Shown: positions 12,512 through 42,547 of the stretch, piece after piece
How the letters are laid out: every line of letters starts with the position of its first letter
Position numbering within the stretch: position 1 is the first letter of the stretch
NCBI GenBank assembly: GCA_964485195.1
Contig: CAZAIK010000005.1
Span: 3,773 to 67,772, forward strand
DNA length: 64,000 nucleotides
Direction: 5' to 3'
Source: an uncultured Methanosarcinales archaeon
GTDB taxonomy: Archaea > Nanobdellota > Nanobdellia > Woesearchaeales > CAIVOO01
Made by a program: the position numbers and the translations under genes
Notes under the pieces: generated by a model
Databases searched by the model: none
What the model saw: only the letters and a program-made list of their open reading frames with translations
What the model was told of the DNA's origin: nothing

Positions 12512-14233
12512 ATGGCAGACAGGAAAAACAGCTGGGAGGATGAAAAAAAGAAGTTCTGGCACAGCTCTTCCCACATACTGGCGCAGGCTGTCAAAAGGCT
12601 TTTTCCAGACGCTATTCCTACTATAGGCCCTGCGACAGATGAAGGATTTTACTATGATTTTGACTTCAGGCCTTTCACCCAGGAAGACCTGGAAAGGATT
12701 GAGGAGGAAATGAAGAAGATAATCAAGGAGGATATCCCAATCAAAAGGGTGGAGCTGACAAAGGCAGAGGCAAAAAAGCAATTCAAGGACAACCCTTACA
12801 AAATTGAGCTTATCGACGAGGCAGAGGGAAAGGTTTCTGCATACAGGCAGGGGGAATTCATTGACTTGTGCAAAGGGCCCCACATAGAGTCAACAGGAAA
12901 GGCAAAAGCCGTCAAAGTTTTGAAAAGCTCAGGGGCATACTGGAGAGGCGATTCTAAGAACAAGCAGCTGCAGAGGATTTACGGAATATCCTTCCCCGAG
13001 AAAAAACAGTTAAGGGAATACCTGTTCAAGCTGGAAGAAGCGGAAAAAAGGGACCACAGAAAACTTGGAAGAGAGCTTGACCTGTACAGCTTTCACGAGG
13101 AAGCCCCGGGAATGGTTTTCACGCACCCGAATGGAATGGTAATCTGGAACCAACTGCTTGACTTCTGGAGGGAAGAGCACAGGAACGCAGGCTACAAGGA
13201 AATCAAAACACCAATAATCCTTAACAAGGAATTGTGGAAAAGGTCAGGCCACTGGGAACATTACAAGGAGGATATGTATTTCATAAAAATAGATGAAGCT
13301 GATTTTGCCATAAAACCGATGAACTGCCCCGGGGGAATGCTGGTATACAAAACAAAATCCCACTCTTACAGGGACTTTCCATTAAGAACTGCAGAGATAG
13401 GACTGGTGCACAGGCACGAGTTAAGCGGTGTACTGTCAGGATTGTTCAGGGTAAGGAGTTTTCATCAGGATGATGCCCATATTTATGTAACCAGGGAACA
13501 GCTTGAAACAGAACTGAAAAATGTAATTAAACTTGTTAATAAGATATATGGCGCATTTGGCTTTGAATATCACGTCGAGCTTTCCACAAAGCCTGAAAAG
13601 GCGATGGGAGACAGCAAAACGTGGGAGATTGCTGAGAGCACCCTGCAAAAGGTTCTTGAAGACATGAAAATAAAATTCAAGATAAATCCAGGGGACGGGG
13701 CATTTTACGGGCCCAAGATTGACTTTCACATAAAGGACGCAATCGGAAGGACCTGGCAGTGCGGGACACTCCAGCTGGACTTCCAGATGCCTGAAAGGTT
13801 TGACCTCACTTATGACGGGGCTGACAACAAGAAGCACAGGCCCACTATGCTTCACAGGACTCTCTACGGATCTATAGAACGGTTCATAGGGATATTGGTG
13901 GAGCATTACGCAGGCAAGTTCCCCTTGTGGCTTTCGCCTGTTCAGGTGATAATACTTCCCATTGCTGACAGGCACGCAGATTATGCAAGGGGCGTGAAGA
14001 AAAAACTGTTTGATTCTGGAATAAGGGTTGAGCTGGATGACAGGACAGAAACAACTTCCAAGAAAGTGAGGGATGCGGAATTGCAGAAGATAAATTACAT
14101 CCTTGTTGTGGGGGACAGGGAAGAAAAGAACAGGACAGTTAATGTGAGGACAAGAAACAACGAAGTTCTCGGGGAGAAAAAGACAGATGAATTCCTTAAG
14201 AGCCTGAAGAAAGAGATTGAGGAGAAGAAGTGA
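12512..14233 (+). CDS. thrS: Threonyl-tRNA synthetase, bacterial type, no TGS domain
   Basis: HSSSH and DLCKGPH editing motifs, KPMNCPG, GAFYGPKIDF. Confidence 0.97.
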   Translation: MADRKNSWEDEKKKFWHSSSHILAQAVKRLFPDAIPTIGPATDEGFYYDFDFRPFTQEDLERIEEEMKKIIKEDIPIKRVELTKAEAKKQFKDNPYKIELIDEAEGKVSAYRQGEFIDLCKGPHIESTGKAKAVKVLKSSGAYWRGDSKNKQLQRIYGISFPEKKQLREYLFKLEEAEKRDHRKLGRELDLYSFHEEAPGMVFTHPNGMVIWNQLLDFWREEHRNAGYKEIKTPIILNKELWKRSGHWEHYKEDMYFIKIDEADFAIKPMNCPGGMLVYKTKSHSYRDFPLRTAEIGLVHRHELSGVLSGLFRVRSFHQDDAHIYVTREQLETELKNVIKLVNKIYGAFGFEYHVELSTKPEKAMGDSKTWEIAESTLQKVLEDMKIKFKINPGDGAFYGPKIDFHIKDAIGRTWQCGTLQLDFQMPERFDLTYDGADNKKHRPTMLHRTLYGSIERFIGILVEHYAGKFPLWLSPVQVIILPIADRHADYARGVKKKLFDSGIRVELDDRTETTSKKVRDAELQKINYILVVGDREEKNRTVNVRTRNNEVLGEKKTDEFLKSLKKEIEEKK

Positions 14234-14538: not shown

Positions 14539-15276
14539 TCATTTTTCAATTAGCCACACCATTTCCTGCTTGTGGTTTTTCAGGGGCTCGCGGTTGAAAC
14601 CGCCGTAAACCTTCCACTTGCTGAAGCCCGCAATTCGCAGTAACAGTTCAAATTCTCTCTTATAAATGAAAGCGATATTAAACTTCTCCTCCCATATTTT
14701 TTTGCCCTTTTCCTTTATGGTATTGATAGATTCAACAATTTGATTTATTTCATCAACGAAATATGACTTGTTAATTAAGATTTTTTTATCTTTGGTTTTA
14801 AGGGTCTCTTTAACCTCTTTCCCGTAAGTTTTTAAGATGATTTCCGGATCTGGAAAGAAAAAAGTAAGGGCTAACTTCCCACTTGGGGCGAGATGGTTCT
14901 TTATGTTCCTCAGGGTTTTTAGCTGGTCCTCAATGGAAAGATTATGCAGAAAAGACCTGAACGGGATTATTATCAGGGAGAACTTATGGTTTAATTTGAA
15001 AGTTCTCATGTCAGCTTTTTTGACTTTTGGCTTCAGCCCCGACTTTTCAGCTTTCTTTTCAAGAACTTTAAGCATGTTTCCTGAAATGTCAATTCCATAT
15101 GCGTCAACGCCATCCTTGAGCATCTCGAGATATATCCTTCCTGTTCCGCAGGCGATTTCAAGAACTTTGCCCTTTGCCCTGCGGGCCTCTTTCCTGTAAA
15201 AATCCAGGTCATCCTTGTATTCCCCATAAATCCAGTCGTAAACCTTTGCCCACTTTTCAAAATTCTGCTTTTTCAT
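14539..15276 (-). CDS. Class I SAM-dependent methyltransferase
   Basis: VLEIACGTGR, GIDIS, ADMR motifs. Confidence 0.9.
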   Translation of the reverse strand: MKKQNFEKWAKVYDWIYGEYKDDLDFYRKEARRAKGKVLEIACGTGRIYLEMLKDGVDAYGIDISGNMLKVLEKKAEKSGLKPKVKKADMRTFKLNHKFSLIIIPFRSFLHNLSIEDQLKTLRNIKNHLAPSGKLALTFFFPDPEIILKTYGKEVKETLKTKDKKILINKSYFVDEINQIVESINTIKEKGKKIWEEKFNIAFIYKREFELLLRIAGFSKWKVYGGFNREPLKNHKQEMVWLIEK

Positions 15277-15487
15277 ATGGGTAATTTGTTTTAGCTTTTT
15301 ATAAAATCTCCTGTTTGACGCAAGCAAAAGAAGGCAGGTTCATAACACTTTTCTTGTTAATTTGAGAGTTAACCTAGCGACCGCAACTTCTTAAACTTAA
15401 ATATTTCCTAAAAAAAGGATAGTCCATTGGGCCTGATGCATGGAACCTGCTAAAGATAACAAAGCAAAAATCATGTTTAAATTTTGT

Positions 15488-15531
15488 GCCGGGATGGCCC
15501 AATCTTGCACGGCGCCAGGTTCAGGGCCTGG
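15488..15531 (+). tRNA. 5' half of an interrupted tRNA (Ser-like body, CAG anticodon)
   Basis: GCCGGGA-TG-GCCC-AATCTTGCA-CGGC-G-CCAGG-TTCAGGG-CCTGG; no T-arm follows. Confidence 0.8.
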
Positions 15532-15536
15532 CGGAT

Positions 15537-17246
15537 TCAAAACTTCCTCTTGTACTTGAAAAAACCGCTTCTTCCAGAAGCCTTTACCAATATCGCAGTT
15601 ATGACAAGGAACAGCGCTGTCCAGCCCAGCAATATCAGGATTCCCCCGACAAATGCCAGTATTCCTGAATGGAAAATAAGAGCCTGCCTCAAAAGGCTTT
15701 CAGCAACAACAAAGGGATTGAACTTCGCTATTGTCTGAACATAGGATGGCATGCTTTCTATGGGAAGTATTGTGTTGGAGAAGAACAGGAACACACAGCT
15801 GAAGGAAACAGCTGCCAGTGTTGTTGTTTCCTCTGACTTGAACCAGTATCCGACCAGCATTCCGAAGAGAACAAAGGTTGATATGATAAAAATAAGGCTG
15901 AGGGCCGCTGTGGGAACTCCTGAAAGAAACTGTATGCTTGTGAATGCAAGCGCAACTATGAGGAAGACTATCAACTGCGCAACTATGATAAGAAAGCTGG
16001 TGGCGTAAGTTCCCAGGTTAAACCAGAAGGCGCTCACTGGGGATATGGCTGTCCTGAACAATGAAGACGATTTCTTTTCATTCATCACTATTGTTGAGGC
16101 CAGCAAGATGGAGGTTATCATAACAATAAGCACTATCAAGGTTGGGAACAGGGAGCTGAAATAGGATGTTTCCATAGTGACCGGCTCTATTTTTGTAGTG
16201 ATGGGGTTTGTTATTCTTGAAGCGTTCTTAACCTCCAAAGTCGTGATTTCATCTTTTATTTTCTCCATAGATGTTTCCAGCAACAGAAGAGAAGATGTCA
16301 GGTTTTCCAGGGCGTTCGTGGCAGTCTTGTCCCTGACTGCCTCATCCCTGATTTCAGACGCCTCTTCAAGCTGCTGCTCTGTCTGGTCTGCTGATTCAAT
16401 CACCGACTCCATCAGCTGGGTAAAGGTCCCGTTTTCAGAAATAGTAAGCAATATCGCCTCTGAAGCCTGCCTCAAGCTGTCCTCAACAGGCTCTATCACG
16501 TCCTCGATGGGATCTGAATCAGAGCAGTTGGCGTCATACACCGCCTCGTCTATGTCTTCAATGATGTTAAGGCTGGTGTTGGCTGCTTCGTAGCACAATG
16601 AAGAAAGGTATTCTGCAGTGTTCTGGAGCTCTTCTGTTTCAAAATCAGCTGACTGCAGGTTCAGCCCGGCCAGTTCATCATAAAGGCCTTCTATTTTTAC
16701 AGAGAGTAATTCCTGTTTTTCAAGCATTTCCCCCAACATTTCCTTGTTTTCCCCTGACTCTTGCTGGGCGCTGGCCAGCTTGTTGAGAAGGACTTCAGTG
16801 AGCTGTGTGCTAATCTCTGTGGATTCTGAGGAGACCTTTTCTGATATTATGTCAAGTATCATCCACACTATGTTTATTCTTGAATAGTCCACATAGAAAG
16901 TTATCTCATTTGCTTCCCCCTTGACATCAAGGTCAGGAGGAAACAGGATGCAGATGTTTGCCCTTCCTCTCCTGACATACTTGACGCAGTCGTTCAAACT
17001 TCTGAACTGGTAAACTGTGAATTTTGATGCTATTTTCTGGATGACAGAGTTTGTAAGTTCGCTGTAATCATCTGAATAAACACCCACTGATAAAGAAAGC
17101 TGGCTCTGGCTGTTGCTGAAGGCGAATCCCACCAGCAGCACTATAAGGAGGGGCCCCAGAAGTATTATGACTGCCGAGCTCCTCGACCTAAGGAGGATTT
17201 TAAAGTTCTTTTTTATTATGGACAAAAAAGCTGAGTTTTTGCTCAT
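15537..17246 (-). CDS. ABC-2 type transporter permease with large acidic extracellular domain
   Basis: N-terminal TM, coiled extracellular region, C-terminal TM bundle with ILPIESMP. Confidence 0.9.
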   Translation of the reverse strand: MSKNSAFLSIIKKNFKILLRSRSSAVIILLGPLLIVLLVGFAFSNSQSQLSLSVGVYSDDYSELTNSVIQKIASKFTVYQFRSLNDCVKYVRRGRANICILFPPDLDVKGEANEITFYVDYSRINIVWMILDIISEKVSSESTEISTQLTEVLLNKLASAQQESGENKEMLGEMLEKQELLSVKIEGLYDELAGLNLQSADFETEELQNTAEYLSSLCYEAANTSLNIIEDIDEAVYDANCSDSDPIEDVIEPVEDSLRQASEAILLTISENGTFTQLMESVIESADQTEQQLEEASEIRDEAVRDKTATNALENLTSSLLLLETSMEKIKDEITTLEVKNASRITNPITTKIEPVTMETSYFSSLFPTLIVLIVMITSILLASTIVMNEKKSSSLFRTAISPVSAFWFNLGTYATSFLIIVAQLIVFLIVALAFTSIQFLSGVPTAALSLIFIISTFVLFGMLVGYWFKSEETTTLAAVSFSCVFLFFSNTILPIESMPSYVQTIAKFNPFVVAESLLRQALIFHSGILAFVGGILILLGWTALFLVITAILVKASGRSGFFKYKRKF

Positions 17247-17980
17247 TTAACTGCTGCCTCAAATACCTGGTCCAGGTTTCTTGCATTGAACTGCTTTTTC
17301 AGGCTGTCAACACTTCCCACTGCAGAGATGTTGTGCCTGTTTATTACTGAAATCCTGCTACATATCTTTTCTATCTCATCGAAGATGTGGGATGCTATTA
17401 TTATCGTTGTTCCCTCTGCATTTATTTTTTTAATCAGCTCTGCCATCTGCTTGCGCGCCATAGGGTCCAGGTCTGCCGTGGGCTCATCCAATATCAGGAT
17501 TCTTGGGCCGTGTATCAGCGCGCAGGCAACGTCAAGCCTTTTTTGCATTCCCCCTGAAAGGTTGCGGGCAAGCGTGTTTCCATCTCCCGAAAGTCCCACC
17601 AGATTTATCAGGACTTCTGCGTTATGCTTCAGGGTGTTCCTGTCCAGCCCGTATAGAGAGCCGAAATACTCCAGGTTTTCCCTGACCGTGAGGCTGCCGT
17701 AGAACGAAGGGCACTGGGCAGCGAAACCGAACTTTTTCTTGATATCCTTATGCCTTCTTGCTGAGACAAGGGAGCCTGCCTGGGAAACAAGCACCTCCCC
17801 CTGCTGAAAGCCGGTGAAGCCCACGATGCATTCCAGCAGTGTTGTCTTTCCTGCTCCGCTGGGGCCCACAATCCCGAATATTTCGCCCTGTCCAATCTCA
17901 AGGCTCACGCTGTTCAGCACCAGTTTATTGCCGTAAAGCTTGTTCAGGTTCGCTATTTTAAGCATCGTGTTCTGCTCCAT
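17243..17980 (-). CDS. ABC transporter ATP-binding protein
   Basis: GPSGAGKTT, LSGGMQKR, ILDEPT. Confidence 0.95.
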   Translation of the reverse strand: MEQNTMLKIANLNKLYGNKLVLNSVSLEIGQGEIFGIVGPSGAGKTTLLECIVGFTGFQQGEVLVSQAGSLVSARRHKDIKKKFGFAAQCPSFYGSLTVRENLEYFGSLYGLDRNTLKHNAEVLINLVGLSGDGNTLARNLSGGMQKRLDVACALIHGPRILILDEPTADLDPMARKQMAELIKKINAEGTTIIIASHIFDEIEKICSRISVINRHNISAVGSVDSLKKQFNARNLDQVFEAAVK

Positions 17981-18106
17981 GGGAACAAATTATCCCTTAT
18001 GATTTTTAAATATTGCCCATAAAATATTCATTTTAAAGATTAAATAGTCAATTCAGAGTCGTTGCAGTCGCTACGGATTAAAATTAATAATAACTTCTAA
18101 CTCTTC

Positions 18107-18134
18107 CAAAAACAAAGAAAGGCCCAAAGGGCCT
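18107..18134 (-). terminator. Hairpin plus U-tract downstream of gyrB
   Basis: Minus strand AGGCCC-TTT-GGGCCT followed by TTCTTTGTTTTT. Confidence 0.4.
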
Positions 18135-18200
18135 GGTGTGTAGAACCTACTATCTATGCGGGTTCGAAACTCACTGCGGGCGAAACTCCCGCTCCCGGCG
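18128..18200 (+). tRNA. 3' half of the interrupted tRNA, with 18-nt BHB intron (18169-18186, position 59/60)
   Basis: CCTGG, 21-nt variable arm, T-stem GCGGG/CCCGC, acceptor 3' strand TCCCGGC complementary to GCCGGGA at 15488; discriminator G. Confidence 0.8.
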
Positions 18201-18216
18201 ACTGGATAATAAGAAT

Positions 18217-21417
<3,201 letters not shown>

Positions 21418-35662: not shown

Positions 35663-36229
35663 ATGTACAGTCCGCAATTGGTTGTCGGGGATTTTTTTGA
35701 AGAGAAAGTTGCACAATTATTCGGTTTGGAAAGGCAGGATTCTCCTGCAGAAGGGAAAAAACCTGACTTGATAGCGAAGGACAATTCCTTTGTCGTTGAA
35801 GTCAAGGCCTCTGCTTACAATAACGGCGGGGTTGTAAAGGGAAATCAGCTGTCAAGGTTTTCTGAAGACGAATCTATGAGAAGGTTTTACGCCTTTGCCT
35901 ATCATTCAATAACAGAGGGTATGCTTGAACAGTATCCTTCAAAGGAGGATTTGAGAAATGCCCTGAACTTGCGCTCACTGTATATTTTTCCCTTCAGCAT
36001 AGTCAGGGCCTTTTACCGCAGCAGGAATCCCAGGCAATACAGGGTGACTGACGATTTTGTACAAATGAGAGAAGGTTTGGCGCATTTGATTTTCACAGGA
36101 GAAGTGGGAATATGGAGAACAATGGGGCTTGATGAAGAGGAATACAAGCGATGGTCTTCAGGGAACATATGCATAACCACCAGAAAGGGGGCGCTTGAGG
36201 ATAAGTTAGCAGGCTCCTTGAAGAGGTAG
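35663..36229 (+). CDS. PD-(D/E)XK nuclease-like protein
   Basis: FEE...KPDL...VEVKAS. Confidence 0.65.
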   Translation: MYSPQLVVGDFFEEKVAQLFGLERQDSPAEGKKPDLIAKDNSFVVEVKASAYNNGGVVKGNQLSRFSEDESMRRFYAFAYHSITEGMLEQYPSKEDLRNALNLRSLYIFPFSIVRAFYRSRNPRQYRVTDDFVQMREGLAHLIFTGEVGIWRTMGLDEEEYKRWSSGNICITTRKGALEDKLAGSLKR

Positions 36230-42354: not shown

Positions 42355-42547
42355 TGCGGGGGGAGGGATTCGAACCCTCGGACCCACTAAGGGACAGGAT
42401 ATCTTAATCCATCTCCTATGATGGTTGTCCCATTTCTTAAGTCCTGCGCATTTAGTCCAAAACCGCAGGTTTTTGGCACTCTGCGATTCTTGTTGACCAG
42501 GCTTTGCTCTAAGGAAGGAAAAGCTCATGCTTGACCTTTACCCCCGC
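42355..42547 (-). tRNA. tRNA-Leu(TAA) with three introns (42509-42539 at 8/9; 42452-42492 in D-loop; 42401-42435 at 37/38)
   Basis: Spliced sequence GCGGGGGT|AGCAAAGCCTGGTCAA|ATGCGCAGGACTTAAG|ATCCTG..TTCGAATCCCTCCCCCCGCA; each intron has a 4-bp central helix and bulge geometry. Confidence 0.9.

What the first reader, a model, noticed from the sequence alone, without database searches (positions are those of the whole stretch)
15488..18200. tRNA gene split by a 2.6-kb antisense ABC-transporter cassette
Seen: the 5' half (15488-15531) and 3' half (18128-18200) fit together. The acceptor GCCGGGA pairs 7/7 with TCCCGGC, A15 is matched by U48, and the 3' half keeps a perfect BHB intron at 59/60. 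A 9-bp direct repeat AGGGCCTGG bounds the gap, so deleting 2605 bp restores a full cloverleaf. The gap holds only an ABC ATPase and permease on the opposite strand, with no integrase. Unlike normal integrated elements, the tRNA is not regenerated. I could not build a clean BHB across the large gap, though the trailer GGGCCT can pair with the leader AGGCCC. Inference: a trans-spliced tRNA, a giant gene-containing intron, an excisable cassette acting as a switch, or a recent disruption.
Basis: partly seen in the sequence, partly recalled or inferred. Interest (0 to 1): 0.9.

Follow-up and report, generated by a model that had tools for sequence, protein, structure and literature searches.

The report
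Broken accessory tRNA flanking ABC operon
Two matching pieces of one unusual transfer-RNA gene really do sit on either side of a transporter operon in a tiny archaeon, but they lack the signals needed to be joined and are most likely the wreck of a dispensable gene.

Summary
Window 15488-15531 and 18128-18200 carry the 5' and 3' parts of one long-arm tRNA with anticodon CAG. They share a 9-bp repeat. Joined in silico, and with the 18-nt T-loop intron removed, they give a full 90-nt cloverleaf. Independent contigs from two samples bridge both junctions, so misassembly is unlikely.

The trans-splicing reading is not supported. None of the 10 junctions allowed by the repeat gives a bulge-helix-bulge motif, and no long leader-trailer helix forms.

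The gene is not a housekeeping tRNA-Leu. It has G73, like the Ser tRNAs. It belongs to a patchily distributed set of G73 long-arm tRNAs with Leu, Ile or Phe anticodons in the same order. Most members have an A-rich run and a partial self-copy upstream.

Fragments of this set occur elsewhere, including in this genome and in the congener. In another genus the ABC operon sits between gyrB and ThrRS without any tRNA pieces.

Best reading: a disrupted, non-functional accessory tRNA gene (about 0.6). A functional split tRNA remains possible (about 0.15).

The parts
15390..15406 (+). AT-rich TATA-like box upstream of the left unit (cttaaacttaaatattt)
   Evidence: Read by eye. It occupies the same place as the upstream TATA-like box of related units. 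No archaeal promoter tool was available.
15410..15419 (+). A-rich run (aaaaaaagga) preceding the partial copy
   Evidence: The same element (consensus AAAATAAAGAAAAAA) precedes the partial copies in related loci.
15420..15451 (+). Same-sense partial copy of the tRNA's anticodon-arm 3' strand and variable arm (GGGCCTGATGCATGGAACCTGCT)
   Evidence: Compared by eye with 18129-18151 (GGGCCTGGTGTGTAGAACCTACT); the two differ at 5 sites. Such a copy is present in 21 of 25 related non-Ser tRNA loci at z>=4.
15476..15485 (+). Second TATA-like box (tttaaatttt), just upstream of the 5' piece
   Evidence: by eye.
15488..15531 (+). 5' piece of the tRNA (positions 1-43): acceptor 5' strand, D arm, complete anticodon arm, anticodon CAG, G37. 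The D loop has TTG where relatives have TGG or AGG.
   Evidence: The D-loop GG is present in 30 of 30 related loci (read by eye).
15523..15531 (+). Left copy of the 9-bp repeat AGGGCCTGG (tRNA positions 35-43)
15537..17246 (-). ABC-2 type permease, 569 aa
   Evidence: Pfam PF12698 3.2e-30 and PF01061. 48% identical to G003:C14:6424-8154.
17243..17980 (-). ABC transporter ATPase, 245 aa
   Evidence: Pfam PF00005 1e-30. 63% identical to the G003 neighbour of the permease homologue.
18076..18095 (+). AT-rich TATA-like stretch upstream of the 3' piece (ggattaaaattaataataac)
   Evidence: by eye. It also lies in the promoter region of the divergent ATPase gene.
18108..18120 (+). A-rich leader AAAAACAAAGAAA directly upstream of the 3' piece
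   Evidence: Fits the A-rich consensus of the group. The motif AAA.AAAGAAA occurs 59 times on both strands of the 1.13-Mb genome.
18121..18133 (+). Hairpin GGCCC-AAA-GGGCC, formed by the leader with the start of the 3' piece
   Evidence: Present in every cofold.
18128..18200 (+). 3' piece: right copy of the 9-bp repeat (18128-18136), 21-nt variable region, T stem GCGGG/CCCGC, T loop TTCGAA..T, acceptor 3' strand TCCCGGC, discriminator G (18200)
18169..18186 (+). 18-nt intron after position 59, with a strict bulge-helix-bulge
   Evidence: Worked out by hand. Removing it gives the T loop TTCGAAT and a full cloverleaf. Introns at this T-loop position occur in other tRNAs of the genome.
14539..15327 (-). 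Flank: SAM-dependent methyltransferase. Not found at the syntenic place in G001 or G003.
   Evidence: Pfam. No homologue in G001 and only distant ones elsewhere. Layouts.
18217..21414 (-). Flank: DNA gyrase subunit B carrying an intein
   Evidence: Pfam. Used as a synteny anchor.
12512..14233 (+). Flank: threonyl-tRNA synthetase, used as a synteny anchor
   Evidence: Pfam. 75% identical to G003 and 78% to G001.

Best explanation
The two pieces are the remains of a dispensable, accessory tRNA gene and no longer make a working tRNA. The gene belongs to a group of long-arm tRNAs with a serine-type discriminator (G73) and leucine, isoleucine or phenylalanine anticodons. Members sit behind a characteristic upstream module: TATA-like box, A-rich run, partial self-copy, second TATA-like box. 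Fragments of such genes occur at several other sites. Each piece may still be transcribed, but nothing marks them for the archaeal splicing endonuclease, so they stay unjoined. Shown: the anatomy, the absence of a splice motif, the group membership, and the gene layouts in two relatives. Inferred: the loss of function and the route to the break. Two routes fit about equally well. (a) One gene was broken at positions 35-43 by a local rearrangement or insertion that duplicated 9 bp. (b) Two units once flanked an ABC operon that was already there. The left unit then lost its 3' part, and the right unit lost its promoter-proximal 5' part by recombination between its upstream partial copy and the gene.
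For: No bulge-helix-bulge at any of the 10 possible junctions. The best is 37/38, with the outer helix 5 of 5, the central helix 2 of 4 and the intron helix 1 of 6. In contrast, the T-loop intron of the same gene is a perfect motif (by hand).

The cofold gives each piece its own hairpin at the junction and no long leader-trailer duplex.

The gene has G73 and a D loop like the genome's four Ser tRNAs, whereas its Leu tRNAs (GAG, UAA, CAA) have A73.

All 30 top model hits in the order have G73. Of these, 25 carry A35 anticodons (UAG, CAG, UAA, CAA, GAG, GAA, GAU, UAU) and 5 are Ser.

The group is patchy: 5 members in G079, 1 each in G001, G022 and G031, and none found in the one-contig genomes G091 and G102. 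G091 has a normal A73 tRNA-Leu(CAG).

Fragments of such genes occur elsewhere. G000:C4:88505-88660 is an A-rich run plus an abridged 5' part plus a 3' part, and no partner was seen in the listing. In congener G001 the counterpart of this tRNA survives only as 18-nt and 13-nt end fragments around another unit.

The 5' piece has T at the D-loop position where 30 of 30 relatives have G.

In G003 the ABC operon lies between gyrB and ThrRS with no tRNA pieces. In G001 gyrB and ThrRS are direct neighbours.

The leader of the 3' piece matches the group's A-rich element.
Against: Both pieces are otherwise intact: 7 of 7 acceptor pairs, all stems paired, canonical T loop, perfect intron motif. Homology stops sharply on both sides of an exact 9-bp overlap. 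This fits a very recent break, or selection.

Each piece has a TATA-like box upstream, as functional split tRNA halves do (by eye only).

No other intact NAG anticodon hairpin in a tRNA-like context was found in the genome: 17 hits, of which only this one sits in such a context. No housekeeping tRNA-Leu(CAG) or (UAG) was located, and the C20 array stayed unsolved. This could therefore be the only CAG tRNA in the assembly.

The G-to-T change in the D loop is a single difference.

No close relative was available to date the break. The nearest genomes share only about 75-78% identity in conserved proteins.
Confidence: 0.6

Rival explanations
1. A functional split tRNA. Both pieces are transcribed from their own promoters and pair through the 7-bp acceptor helix. 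They are then either joined by a route that does not need a canonical bulge-helix-bulge, or they act as a two-piece tRNA nicked between the anticodon stem and the variable arm.
For: The pieces are complementary and give a complete cloverleaf. All helices and the T-loop intron motif are intact. A TATA-like box and an A-rich leader lie upstream of the 3' piece, and a TATA-like box lies upstream of the 5' piece (by eye). The leader hairpin GGCCC-AAA-GGGCC would stop the duplicated 36-40 segment from competing with the anticodon stem of the 5' piece. The genome plainly has a broad-specificity splicing system, since it has many non-canonical introns. There is a precedent for halves a few kb apart: S. 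marinus tRNA-Lys(CUU), 4,500 nt (PMC3218864, section 6).
Against: 0 of 10 junctions shows the splice motif. No 12-14-nt leader-trailer duplex, as seen in known split tRNAs, forms here (PMC3218864, section 6). The same type of 5'-abridged piece exists at C4:88505, where no partner was seen and the intron motif is broken (motif by eye). No split was found in G001 or G003. No RNA data exist.
Confidence: 0.15
2. An intact tRNA gene was hit by a mobile or excisable ABC cassette. The 9-bp repeat is a target duplication or att core, and recombination between the repeats could restore the gene, acting as a switch.
For: An exact 9-bp direct repeat sits at sharp homology breakpoints, and deleting 2605 bp restores the gene. 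tRNA genes are known integration and rearrangement sites (PMC3218864, discussion passages).
Against: No integrase or transposase domain in the two ORFs. No terminal inverted repeats were seen just inside the repeats (by eye). The best inverted match between the two intergenic regions is marginal: 8 of 500 shuffles reach it. ABC orthologues (63% and 48% identity) occupy the same gyrB-ThrRS interval in G003 with no tRNA remains. No empty-site or circle joint appears in contigs of 2 samples, but contigs drop rare variants.
Confidence: 0.12
3. An assembly artefact: the two pieces were brought next to the ABC operon by a chimeric join at the repeat.
For: The genome is a 32-contig metagenome assembly with scaffold gaps. 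Coverage is low, 5-9x.
Against: Logan contigs assembled independently bridge both junctions with 0 differences. X1 record 2 covers 15436-17164 and record 3 covers 17170-18400. X2 record 6 covers 15300-15637 and record 9 covers 17178-18400. A 9-bp repeat is too short to mislead an assembler.
Confidence: 0.02

Closest known systems
Split (trans-spliced) tRNA genes of Nanoarchaeum equitans and Staphylothermus (for example S. marinus tRNA-Lys(CUU), halves 4,500 nt apart)
   Same: Two collinear pieces that together give a complete tRNA, separated by protein genes, each with AT-rich promoter-like sequence upstream. The host is a small DPANN-like archaeon with many disrupted tRNA genes.
   Different: Known cases have a canonical bulge-helix-bulge at the junction plus a perfect leader-trailer helix of about 13 nt (PMC3218864, section 6, read in full). 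Here neither is present. The pieces overlap by a 9-bp duplication, so the 5' piece contains a whole anticodon arm.
Partial tRNA fragments left by integration or rearrangement at tRNA loci in archaea
   Same: Incomplete tRNA copies next to unrelated genes. tRNA loci are breakpoints of synteny. [quoted passage not shown]
   Different: Here both complementary parts survive 2.6 kb apart on one strand. No integrase or provirus is present, and the gene belongs to an unusual tRNA group. Supplementary Table S3 of that paper could not be seen.
Serine-type tRNAs with non-serine anticodons: tRNA-Ser(CAG) of CTG-clade yeasts (recalled) and bacterial allo-tRNAs (PMC5389517, listing abstract only)
   Same: A long variable arm and G73, which in studied systems direct serylation independently of the anticodon. 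In Haloferax, G73 blocks LeuRS (PMC9976931, passages). The anticodon reads a leucine codon.
   Different: Allo-tRNAs have 8/4 or 9/3 acceptor/T stems and are bacterial. This group is 7/5, archaeal, carries T-loop introns and has an upstream partial self-copy. Charging was not tested.
Archaeal tRNAs with non-canonical bulge-helix-bulge introns
   Same: The 18-nt intron after position 59 is a textbook motif, and introns at this T-loop position occur in other tRNAs of this genome.
   Different: This applies only to the small intron, not to the 2.6-kb gap.

Membership tests
Trans-spliced split tRNA (N. equitans / Staphylothermus type) | Two separately encoded pieces that together form a complete cloverleaf | tested here: met
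   In-script join of 15488-15531, 18137-18168 and 18187-18200 gives a 90-nt class II cloverleaf.
Trans-spliced split tRNA (N. equitans / Staphylothermus type) | Bulge-helix-bulge motif formed in trans at the exon junction | tested here: not met
   0 of the 10 junctions allowed by the repeat fits. The best is 37/38, with the central helix 2 of 4 and the intron helix 1 of 6.
Trans-spliced split tRNA (N. equitans / Staphylothermus type) | Extended GC-rich pairing between the 5'-half trailer and the 3'-half leader | tested here: not met
   Nine cofolds with different flank lengths show at most 3-6 bp of weak inter-strand contacts. Each piece forms its own hairpin.
Trans-spliced split tRNA (N. equitans / Staphylothermus type) | A promoter upstream of each piece | tested here: inconclusive
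   TATA-like AT-rich boxes were seen by eye at 15476-15485 and 18076-18095. No archaeal promoter model was available, and the second box lies in a divergent promoter region.
Trans-spliced split tRNA (N. equitans / Staphylothermus type) | A joined mature RNA exists | not testable with these tools
   No RNA run holds the stretch.
Trans-spliced split tRNA (N. equitans / Staphylothermus type) | The split arrangement is conserved in relatives | tested here: not met
   G003 has the ABC operon without tRNA pieces. G001 has neither at the syntenic site and holds only end fragments of the counterpart elsewhere. These relatives are distant.
Integrated mobile element in a tRNA gene | Direct repeats of tRNA sequence flank the inserted DNA | tested here: met
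   9-bp AGGGCCTGG at both ends.
Integrated mobile element in a tRNA gene | Integrase/recombinase or other mobility genes in the insert | tested here: not met
   Pfam finds only ABC-2 permease and ABC ATPase domains in the two ORFs.
Integrated mobile element in a tRNA gene | The insert is absent from the syntenic site of relatives | tested here: inconclusive
   Absent in G001, but an orthologous operon is present in the same gyrB-ThrRS interval in G003.
Archaeal tRNA-Leu | Discriminator A73 with a long variable arm | tested here: not met
   The base after TCCCGGC is G (18200). The genome's Leu GAG, UAA and CAA genes have A73, as do Leu GAG and CAG of G091.
Serine-type (class II, G73) tRNA | G73 plus a long variable arm | tested here: met
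   These features are shared with the four Ser tRNAs of the genome.
Serine-type (class II, G73) tRNA | Charged with serine | not testable with these tools
   Inferred only from identity rules in other organisms (PMC9976931, passages).
Allo-tRNA (Mukai et al.) | 8/4 or 9/3 acceptor/T-stem configuration | tested here: not met
   Acceptor stem 7 bp and T stem 5 bp.
Accessory G73 long-arm tRNA group of this order (defined here) | G73, long variable arm, A35 anticodon, and an A-rich run plus same-sense partial copy upstream | tested here: met
   Anticodon CAG and G73. A-rich run 15410-15419 and partial copy 15420-15451 (by eye). The covariance model hits both pieces. Group features are shown.

The most novel reading that the evidence does not exclude
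The pieces are a living split gene of a previously undescribed accessory tRNA class. Members are serine-type (G73, long arm) tRNAs that read leucine, isoleucine or phenylalanine codons. They are expressed from modules whose leader mimics the tRNA's own anticodon and variable arms. In this genome the two halves, each behind such a module, would assemble through the acceptor helix or be joined by a non-canonical route. Production of a CUG-reading serine-type tRNA would then depend on co-expression of both halves, giving a conditional recoding or mistranslation device.
Probability: 0.1. Interest if true: 0.9.

Novelty: new variant of a known kind. Interest (0 to 1): 0.5.

Why it matters
If the pieces were joined, this would be a split tRNA without a bulge-helix-bulge signal, in an archaeon from a microbial mat metagenome. 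All seven species known in 2011 to harbour split tRNAs are hyperthermophiles (PMC3218864, discussion passage). It would bear on how split tRNA genes arise. The evidence points the other way, so the locus itself is mainly a caution: complementary tRNA fragments are not enough to call trans-splicing. The more useful result is the context. Genomes of this order carry a patchy set of G73 long-arm tRNAs with Leu, Ile or Phe anticodons and self-mimicking upstream copies. These could mischarge or recode, and they help explain why standard tools report incomplete tRNA sets in these archaea (preprint 10.64898/2026.05.13.725050, passages).

Tried and rejected
**Standard finders.** ARAGORN and Rfam at E<=10 see neither piece.

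**BLASTN of the 3' piece.** Run against 41 genomes of the order, it gave only chance-level matches; the best foreign hit was E 0.0067 over 18 nt.

**ABC loci of G002 and G003.** They show no tRNA pieces within the fetched flanks.

**Metagenome scan with the permease.** It gave 7 loci. The best full-length identity was 37%. One 29-residue match at 83% (L103) has no DNA similarity to the window. No close relative was therefore available.

**Similarity between the two intergenic regions.** It is marginal: 35 of 500 shuffles reach the direct score and 8 of 500 reach the inverted score. I do not build on the shared 13-mer.

**G001 gyrB-ThrRS spacer.** It looked to me like a decayed upstream module, but it has no significant similarity to either G000 spacer, so I dropped the idea.

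**Neighbour of the G001 unit.** The aaRS next to it is 38 kb from the G000:C4 fragment, so the two are not syntenic.

**Intron-removal pipeline.** My bulge-helix-bulge removal plus ARAGORN pipeline recovered Leu(CAA) at C1:104086 but did not solve the C20 array. The presence of a housekeeping tRNA-Leu(CAG/UAG) therefore stays open.

**Expression.** No RNA holder is listed for the stretch, so expression is untested.

**Empty site.** No empty-site or circle joint appears in contigs of 3 runs. Contigs drop rare variants, so this says little.

**Neighbours of eight related units.** They are housekeeping genes, with no mobility genes in the 17 ORFs scanned.

**Literature.** The terms found no description of G73 long-arm tRNAs with Leu/Ile/Phe anticodons in DPANN archaea, nor of split tRNAs lacking the splice motif. 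This covers only the held library.

**Long outputs.** Several of my scripts printed very long or truncated lists. I used only what is quoted.
Full report
**What is there**

Window 15488-15531 (plus strand) reads GCCGGGA-TG-GCC-CAATCTTGCAC-GGC-G-CCAGG-TTCAGGG-CCTGG. This is an acceptor 5' strand, a D arm and a complete anticodon arm with anticodon CAG and G37.

Window 18128-18200 reads as follows:
- AGGGCCTGG;
- a 21-nt variable region;
- GCGGG-TTCGAA;
- an 18-nt insert;
- T-CCCGC;
- TCCCGGC;
- G.

The 9-mer AGGGCCTGG (tRNA positions 35-43) occurs at 15523-15531 and 18128-18136. The acceptor strands pair 7 of 7.

By hand, the 18-nt insert after position 59 is a strict bulge-helix-bulge. The T stem forms the outer helix, UUCG:CGAA the central helix, and there are two 3-nt bulges and a 3-bp inner helix.

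I joined the pieces by coordinates and removed that intron. The result is a 90-nt class II cloverleaf with T loop TTCGAAT, which ARAGORN calls tRNA(cag).

Between the pieces lie only an ABC-2 permease and an ABC ATPase, both on the minus strand.

ARAGORN and Rfam see neither piece. A covariance model that I built from six contiguous relatives hits each piece separately (24.5 and 24.9 bits, E about 1e-5 in 3.1 kb).

**Is it an artefact?**

The genome (G000) has 1.13 Mb in 32 contigs at 43% GC and is 99.5% complete.

Two runs of one microbial-mat study hold the stretch. Their independently built contigs bridge both junctions with no differences and no alternative joints. One run may be the source of the assembly, and depth is only 5-9x. 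Misassembly is unlikely.

**Can the pieces be spliced?**

Known split tRNAs have a canonical bulge-helix-bulge at the junction and a leader-trailer helix of about 13 nt. The S. marinus tRNA-Lys(CUU) halves lie 4,500 nt apart and meet both conditions (PMC3218864, section 6, read in full).

The 9-bp duplication allows 10 junctions, from 34/35 to 43/44. None gives the motif. The best, 37/38, has the anticodon stem 5 of 5 but the central helix only 2 of 4 and the intron helix 1 of 6.

In nine cofolds the acceptor helix forms between the strands. However, the 5' piece folds its own anticodon arm, and the 3' piece's leader folds on itself as GGCCC-AAA-GGGCC. No long leader-trailer duplex appears.

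The same argument rules out a 2.6-kb cis intron.

**What kind of tRNA is it?**

The genome has many multi-intron tRNAs. Rfam finds 22 above its cut-off, and my own scan finds about 36.

Its Ser set has G73 and D loops of the type [TC]AATCTGGT:
- GGA at C2:105214;
- CGA at C1:74494;
- UGA at C7:22288;
- GCU at C1:51180.

Its Leu genes have A73:
- GAG at C3:54424;
- UAA at C5:46319;
- CAA at C1:104086.

The split gene has G73 and a Ser-like D loop, but a Leu anticodon.

In studied systems G73 plus a long arm directs serylation independently of the anticodon. In Haloferax, G73 blocks LeuRS (PMC9976931, passages). Charging was not tested here.

**The group it belongs to**

The 13-mer CCCGCTCCCGGCG occurs exactly in seven other genomes of the order. 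It sits in a tRNA context in G001, G065, G079 (three sites) and G085, and in coding-like context in G072, G101 and G141.

A model of six contiguous genes was run on 150 genomes. All 30 fetched top hits have G73:
- 25 carry anticodons with A35: UAG 2, CAG 2, UAA 3, CAA 1, GAG 5, GAA 4, GAU 6, UAU 2;
- 5 are Ser.

Per-genome counts are patchy:
- G079 has five (UAG, CAG, and GAA three times);
- G001, G022 and G031 have one each;
- none was found in the one-contig genomes G091 and G102.

G091 has normal A73 Leu(GAG) and Leu(CAG). G022 also has an ordinary class I gene whose anticodon loop reads GAU, beside its long-arm GAU gene (by eye).

Of the 25 non-Ser loci, 21 have upstream a same-sense partial copy of tRNA positions about 28-59, at z>=4 against shuffles. 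The copy lies mostly 40-90 nt upstream. In the examples I read, it follows an A-rich run (consensus AAAATAAAGAAAAAA). None of the 5 Ser loci has it.

In a second set, 4 of the 19 Ser or A73 genes reached z 5-9. I did not inspect them.

The five G079 units share a module of about 300 nt, in this order:
- a palindromic motif;
- a TATA-like box;
- the A-rich run;
- the copy;
- a second TATA-like box;
- GTTGGGTAAA;
- the tRNA;
- CCCAAT.

Their neighbours are housekeeping genes.

In five GAU-type loci the variable-loop sequence differs between genomes, yet each copy matches its own tRNA. One difference is constant: TGAG[AG]C in the tRNA against TAAGAC in the copy. I cannot explain this.

G000's left piece has the full module: A-rich run at 15410-15419, copy at 15420-15451, TATA-like box at 15476-15485. 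The right piece is preceded directly by AAAAACAAAGAAA and a hairpin. The motif AAA.AAAGAAA occurs only 59 times on both strands of the genome.

**Fragments elsewhere**

G000:C4:88505-88660 consists of:
- an A-rich run;
- an abridged 5' part;
- a GAU anticodon arm;
- a T arm with a 70-nt insert whose splice motif is broken (by eye);
- CGGCGCC;
- G.

The listing showed no tRNA-like 5' partner for it.

In congener G001, an 18-nt 5' fragment (GCCTGGATGGCCCAGTTC) and the 13-nt 3' end of the counterpart tRNA flank a complete unit of another member.

So broken copies of this group also exist in this genome and in the congener, at different places in the two.

**History of the locus**

In G003 (another genus of the family) the order is gyrB, ATPase, permease, then a convergent ThrRS. 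The gyrB-ATPase spacer is 158 nt and AT-rich, with no tRNA remains.

Identities to G000 are:
- 78% for the GyrB C-terminal part;
- 63% for the ATPase;
- 48% for the permease;
- 75% for ThrRS.

In G001, gyrB and ThrRS are direct convergent neighbours.

The ABC operon is therefore probably old in this interval. The methyltransferase and the tRNA pieces are particular to G000. This argues against a cassette arriving from elsewhere, but it does not exclude a local rearrangement.

Two routes fit:
- (a) One unit was broken at positions 35-43, with a 9-bp duplication.
- (b) There were two units. The right one was reduced by recombination between its upstream copy and the gene, an event that the direct repeats of every unit invite. 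The left one was truncated up to 5 nt before the permease stop codon.

Sharp homology breakpoints and the exact overlap favour (a). The group-type leader of the right piece and the C4 fragment favour (b).

**Verdict**

The most likely state is a non-functional, two-piece remnant of an accessory tRNA (about 0.6).

Several points count against this reading:
- both pieces are almost flawless apart from one D-loop change, T where 30 of 30 relatives have G;
- I could not locate another CAG or UAG tRNA in the assembly;
- no close relative or RNA data exist.

A functional split (about 0.15) and an excisable cassette (about 0.12) remain open.

Noticed in passing
Loci L053-L082, L104-L132 (for example L053:1501-1622, L108:1501-1620, L113:1501-1605 minus, L065:1501-1612): Genomes of the same order carry long-arm tRNAs with G73 and Leu, Ile or Phe anticodons, all with A35: UAG, CAG, UAA, CAA, GAG, GAA, GAU, UAU. 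They make up 25 of the 30 top model hits and are patchily distributed: 0 to 5 per genome in the 6 genomes inventoried. By known identity rules they look serine-type. Charging is untested.
   Followed up: partly
Upstream 40-130 nt of the same loci (for example L053:1420-1452, L063, L065, L072, L073, L075): 21 of 25 such tRNAs have an upstream same-sense partial copy of their own positions about 28-59; in the examples read it follows an A-rich run (AAAATAAAGAAAAAA). 0 of 5 Ser tRNAs have it. In five GAU-type loci the copy tracks its own tRNA's variable loop but always differs at one site (TAAGAC against TGAG[AG]C). Function unknown; candidates are a leader mimic, an antisense RNA or a recombination scar.
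   Followed up: partly
L031/L052 (G001:C1, about 35700-35968): In the congener, an 18-nt 5' fragment and a 13-nt 3' fragment of the counterpart of the split tRNA flank a complete unit of another G73 long-arm tRNA (anticodon loop TTGACCG, with a pyrimidine at position 37). It looks as if one unit replaced the middle of another.
   Followed up: partly
G000:C4:88505-88660 (outside the window): A second 5'-abridged tRNA of the same group: A-rich run, defective D region, GAU anticodon arm, T arm with a 70-nt insert whose splice motif is broken, CGGCGCC, G73. No tRNA-like 5' partner was seen in the listing.
   Followed up: partly
G000:C20:1016-1490 (outside the window): One A73 long-arm tRNA with unresolved introns, followed by at least two repeats of a 3' fragment of about 129 nt with identical T arm and acceptor end. 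A 100-N scaffold gap interrupts the array. It may be a Leu tRNA array, shared 3' halves or an assembly problem.
   Followed up: partly
window 42355-42547 (minus) and genome-wide: tRNA genes here are heavily interrupted. One example is a tRNA-Leu(UAA) of 193 nt with three inserts. Introns after position 59 in the T loop are seen in several genes. Rfam's tRNA model finds only 22 genes above its cut-off in a 99.5% complete genome.
   Followed up: partly
window 18217-21414 (minus): The DNA gyrase B gene carries an intein (Pfam Intein_splicing, residues 441-863). The G001, G002, G003 and G004 homologues have open frames of about 630-690 aa, so they appear to lack it.
   Followed up: no
window 15375-15387 and 18061-18073: A 13-mer (TAGCGACCGCAAC, and its reverse complement with one change) lies upstream of the TATA-like box of both pieces, in opposite orientation. 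Overall similarity of the two spacers is only marginal (8 of 500 shuffles).
   Followed up: partly
A2 columns about 205-225 (G079 units); also upstream of L056, L066, L069, L071: Palindromic motifs of the type TTTCG...CGAAA or GATTTTCCGGAAAATC sit upstream of the first TATA-like box of several units. They could be an operator for a regulator. Seen by eye only.
   Followed up: no
window 17680-17771 (plus): Weak Rfam match to a C/D-box snoRNA family (snoU83B, 26.6 bits, below the gathering score of 35, E 0.021), antisense inside the ATPase gene. Probably chance.
   Followed up: no
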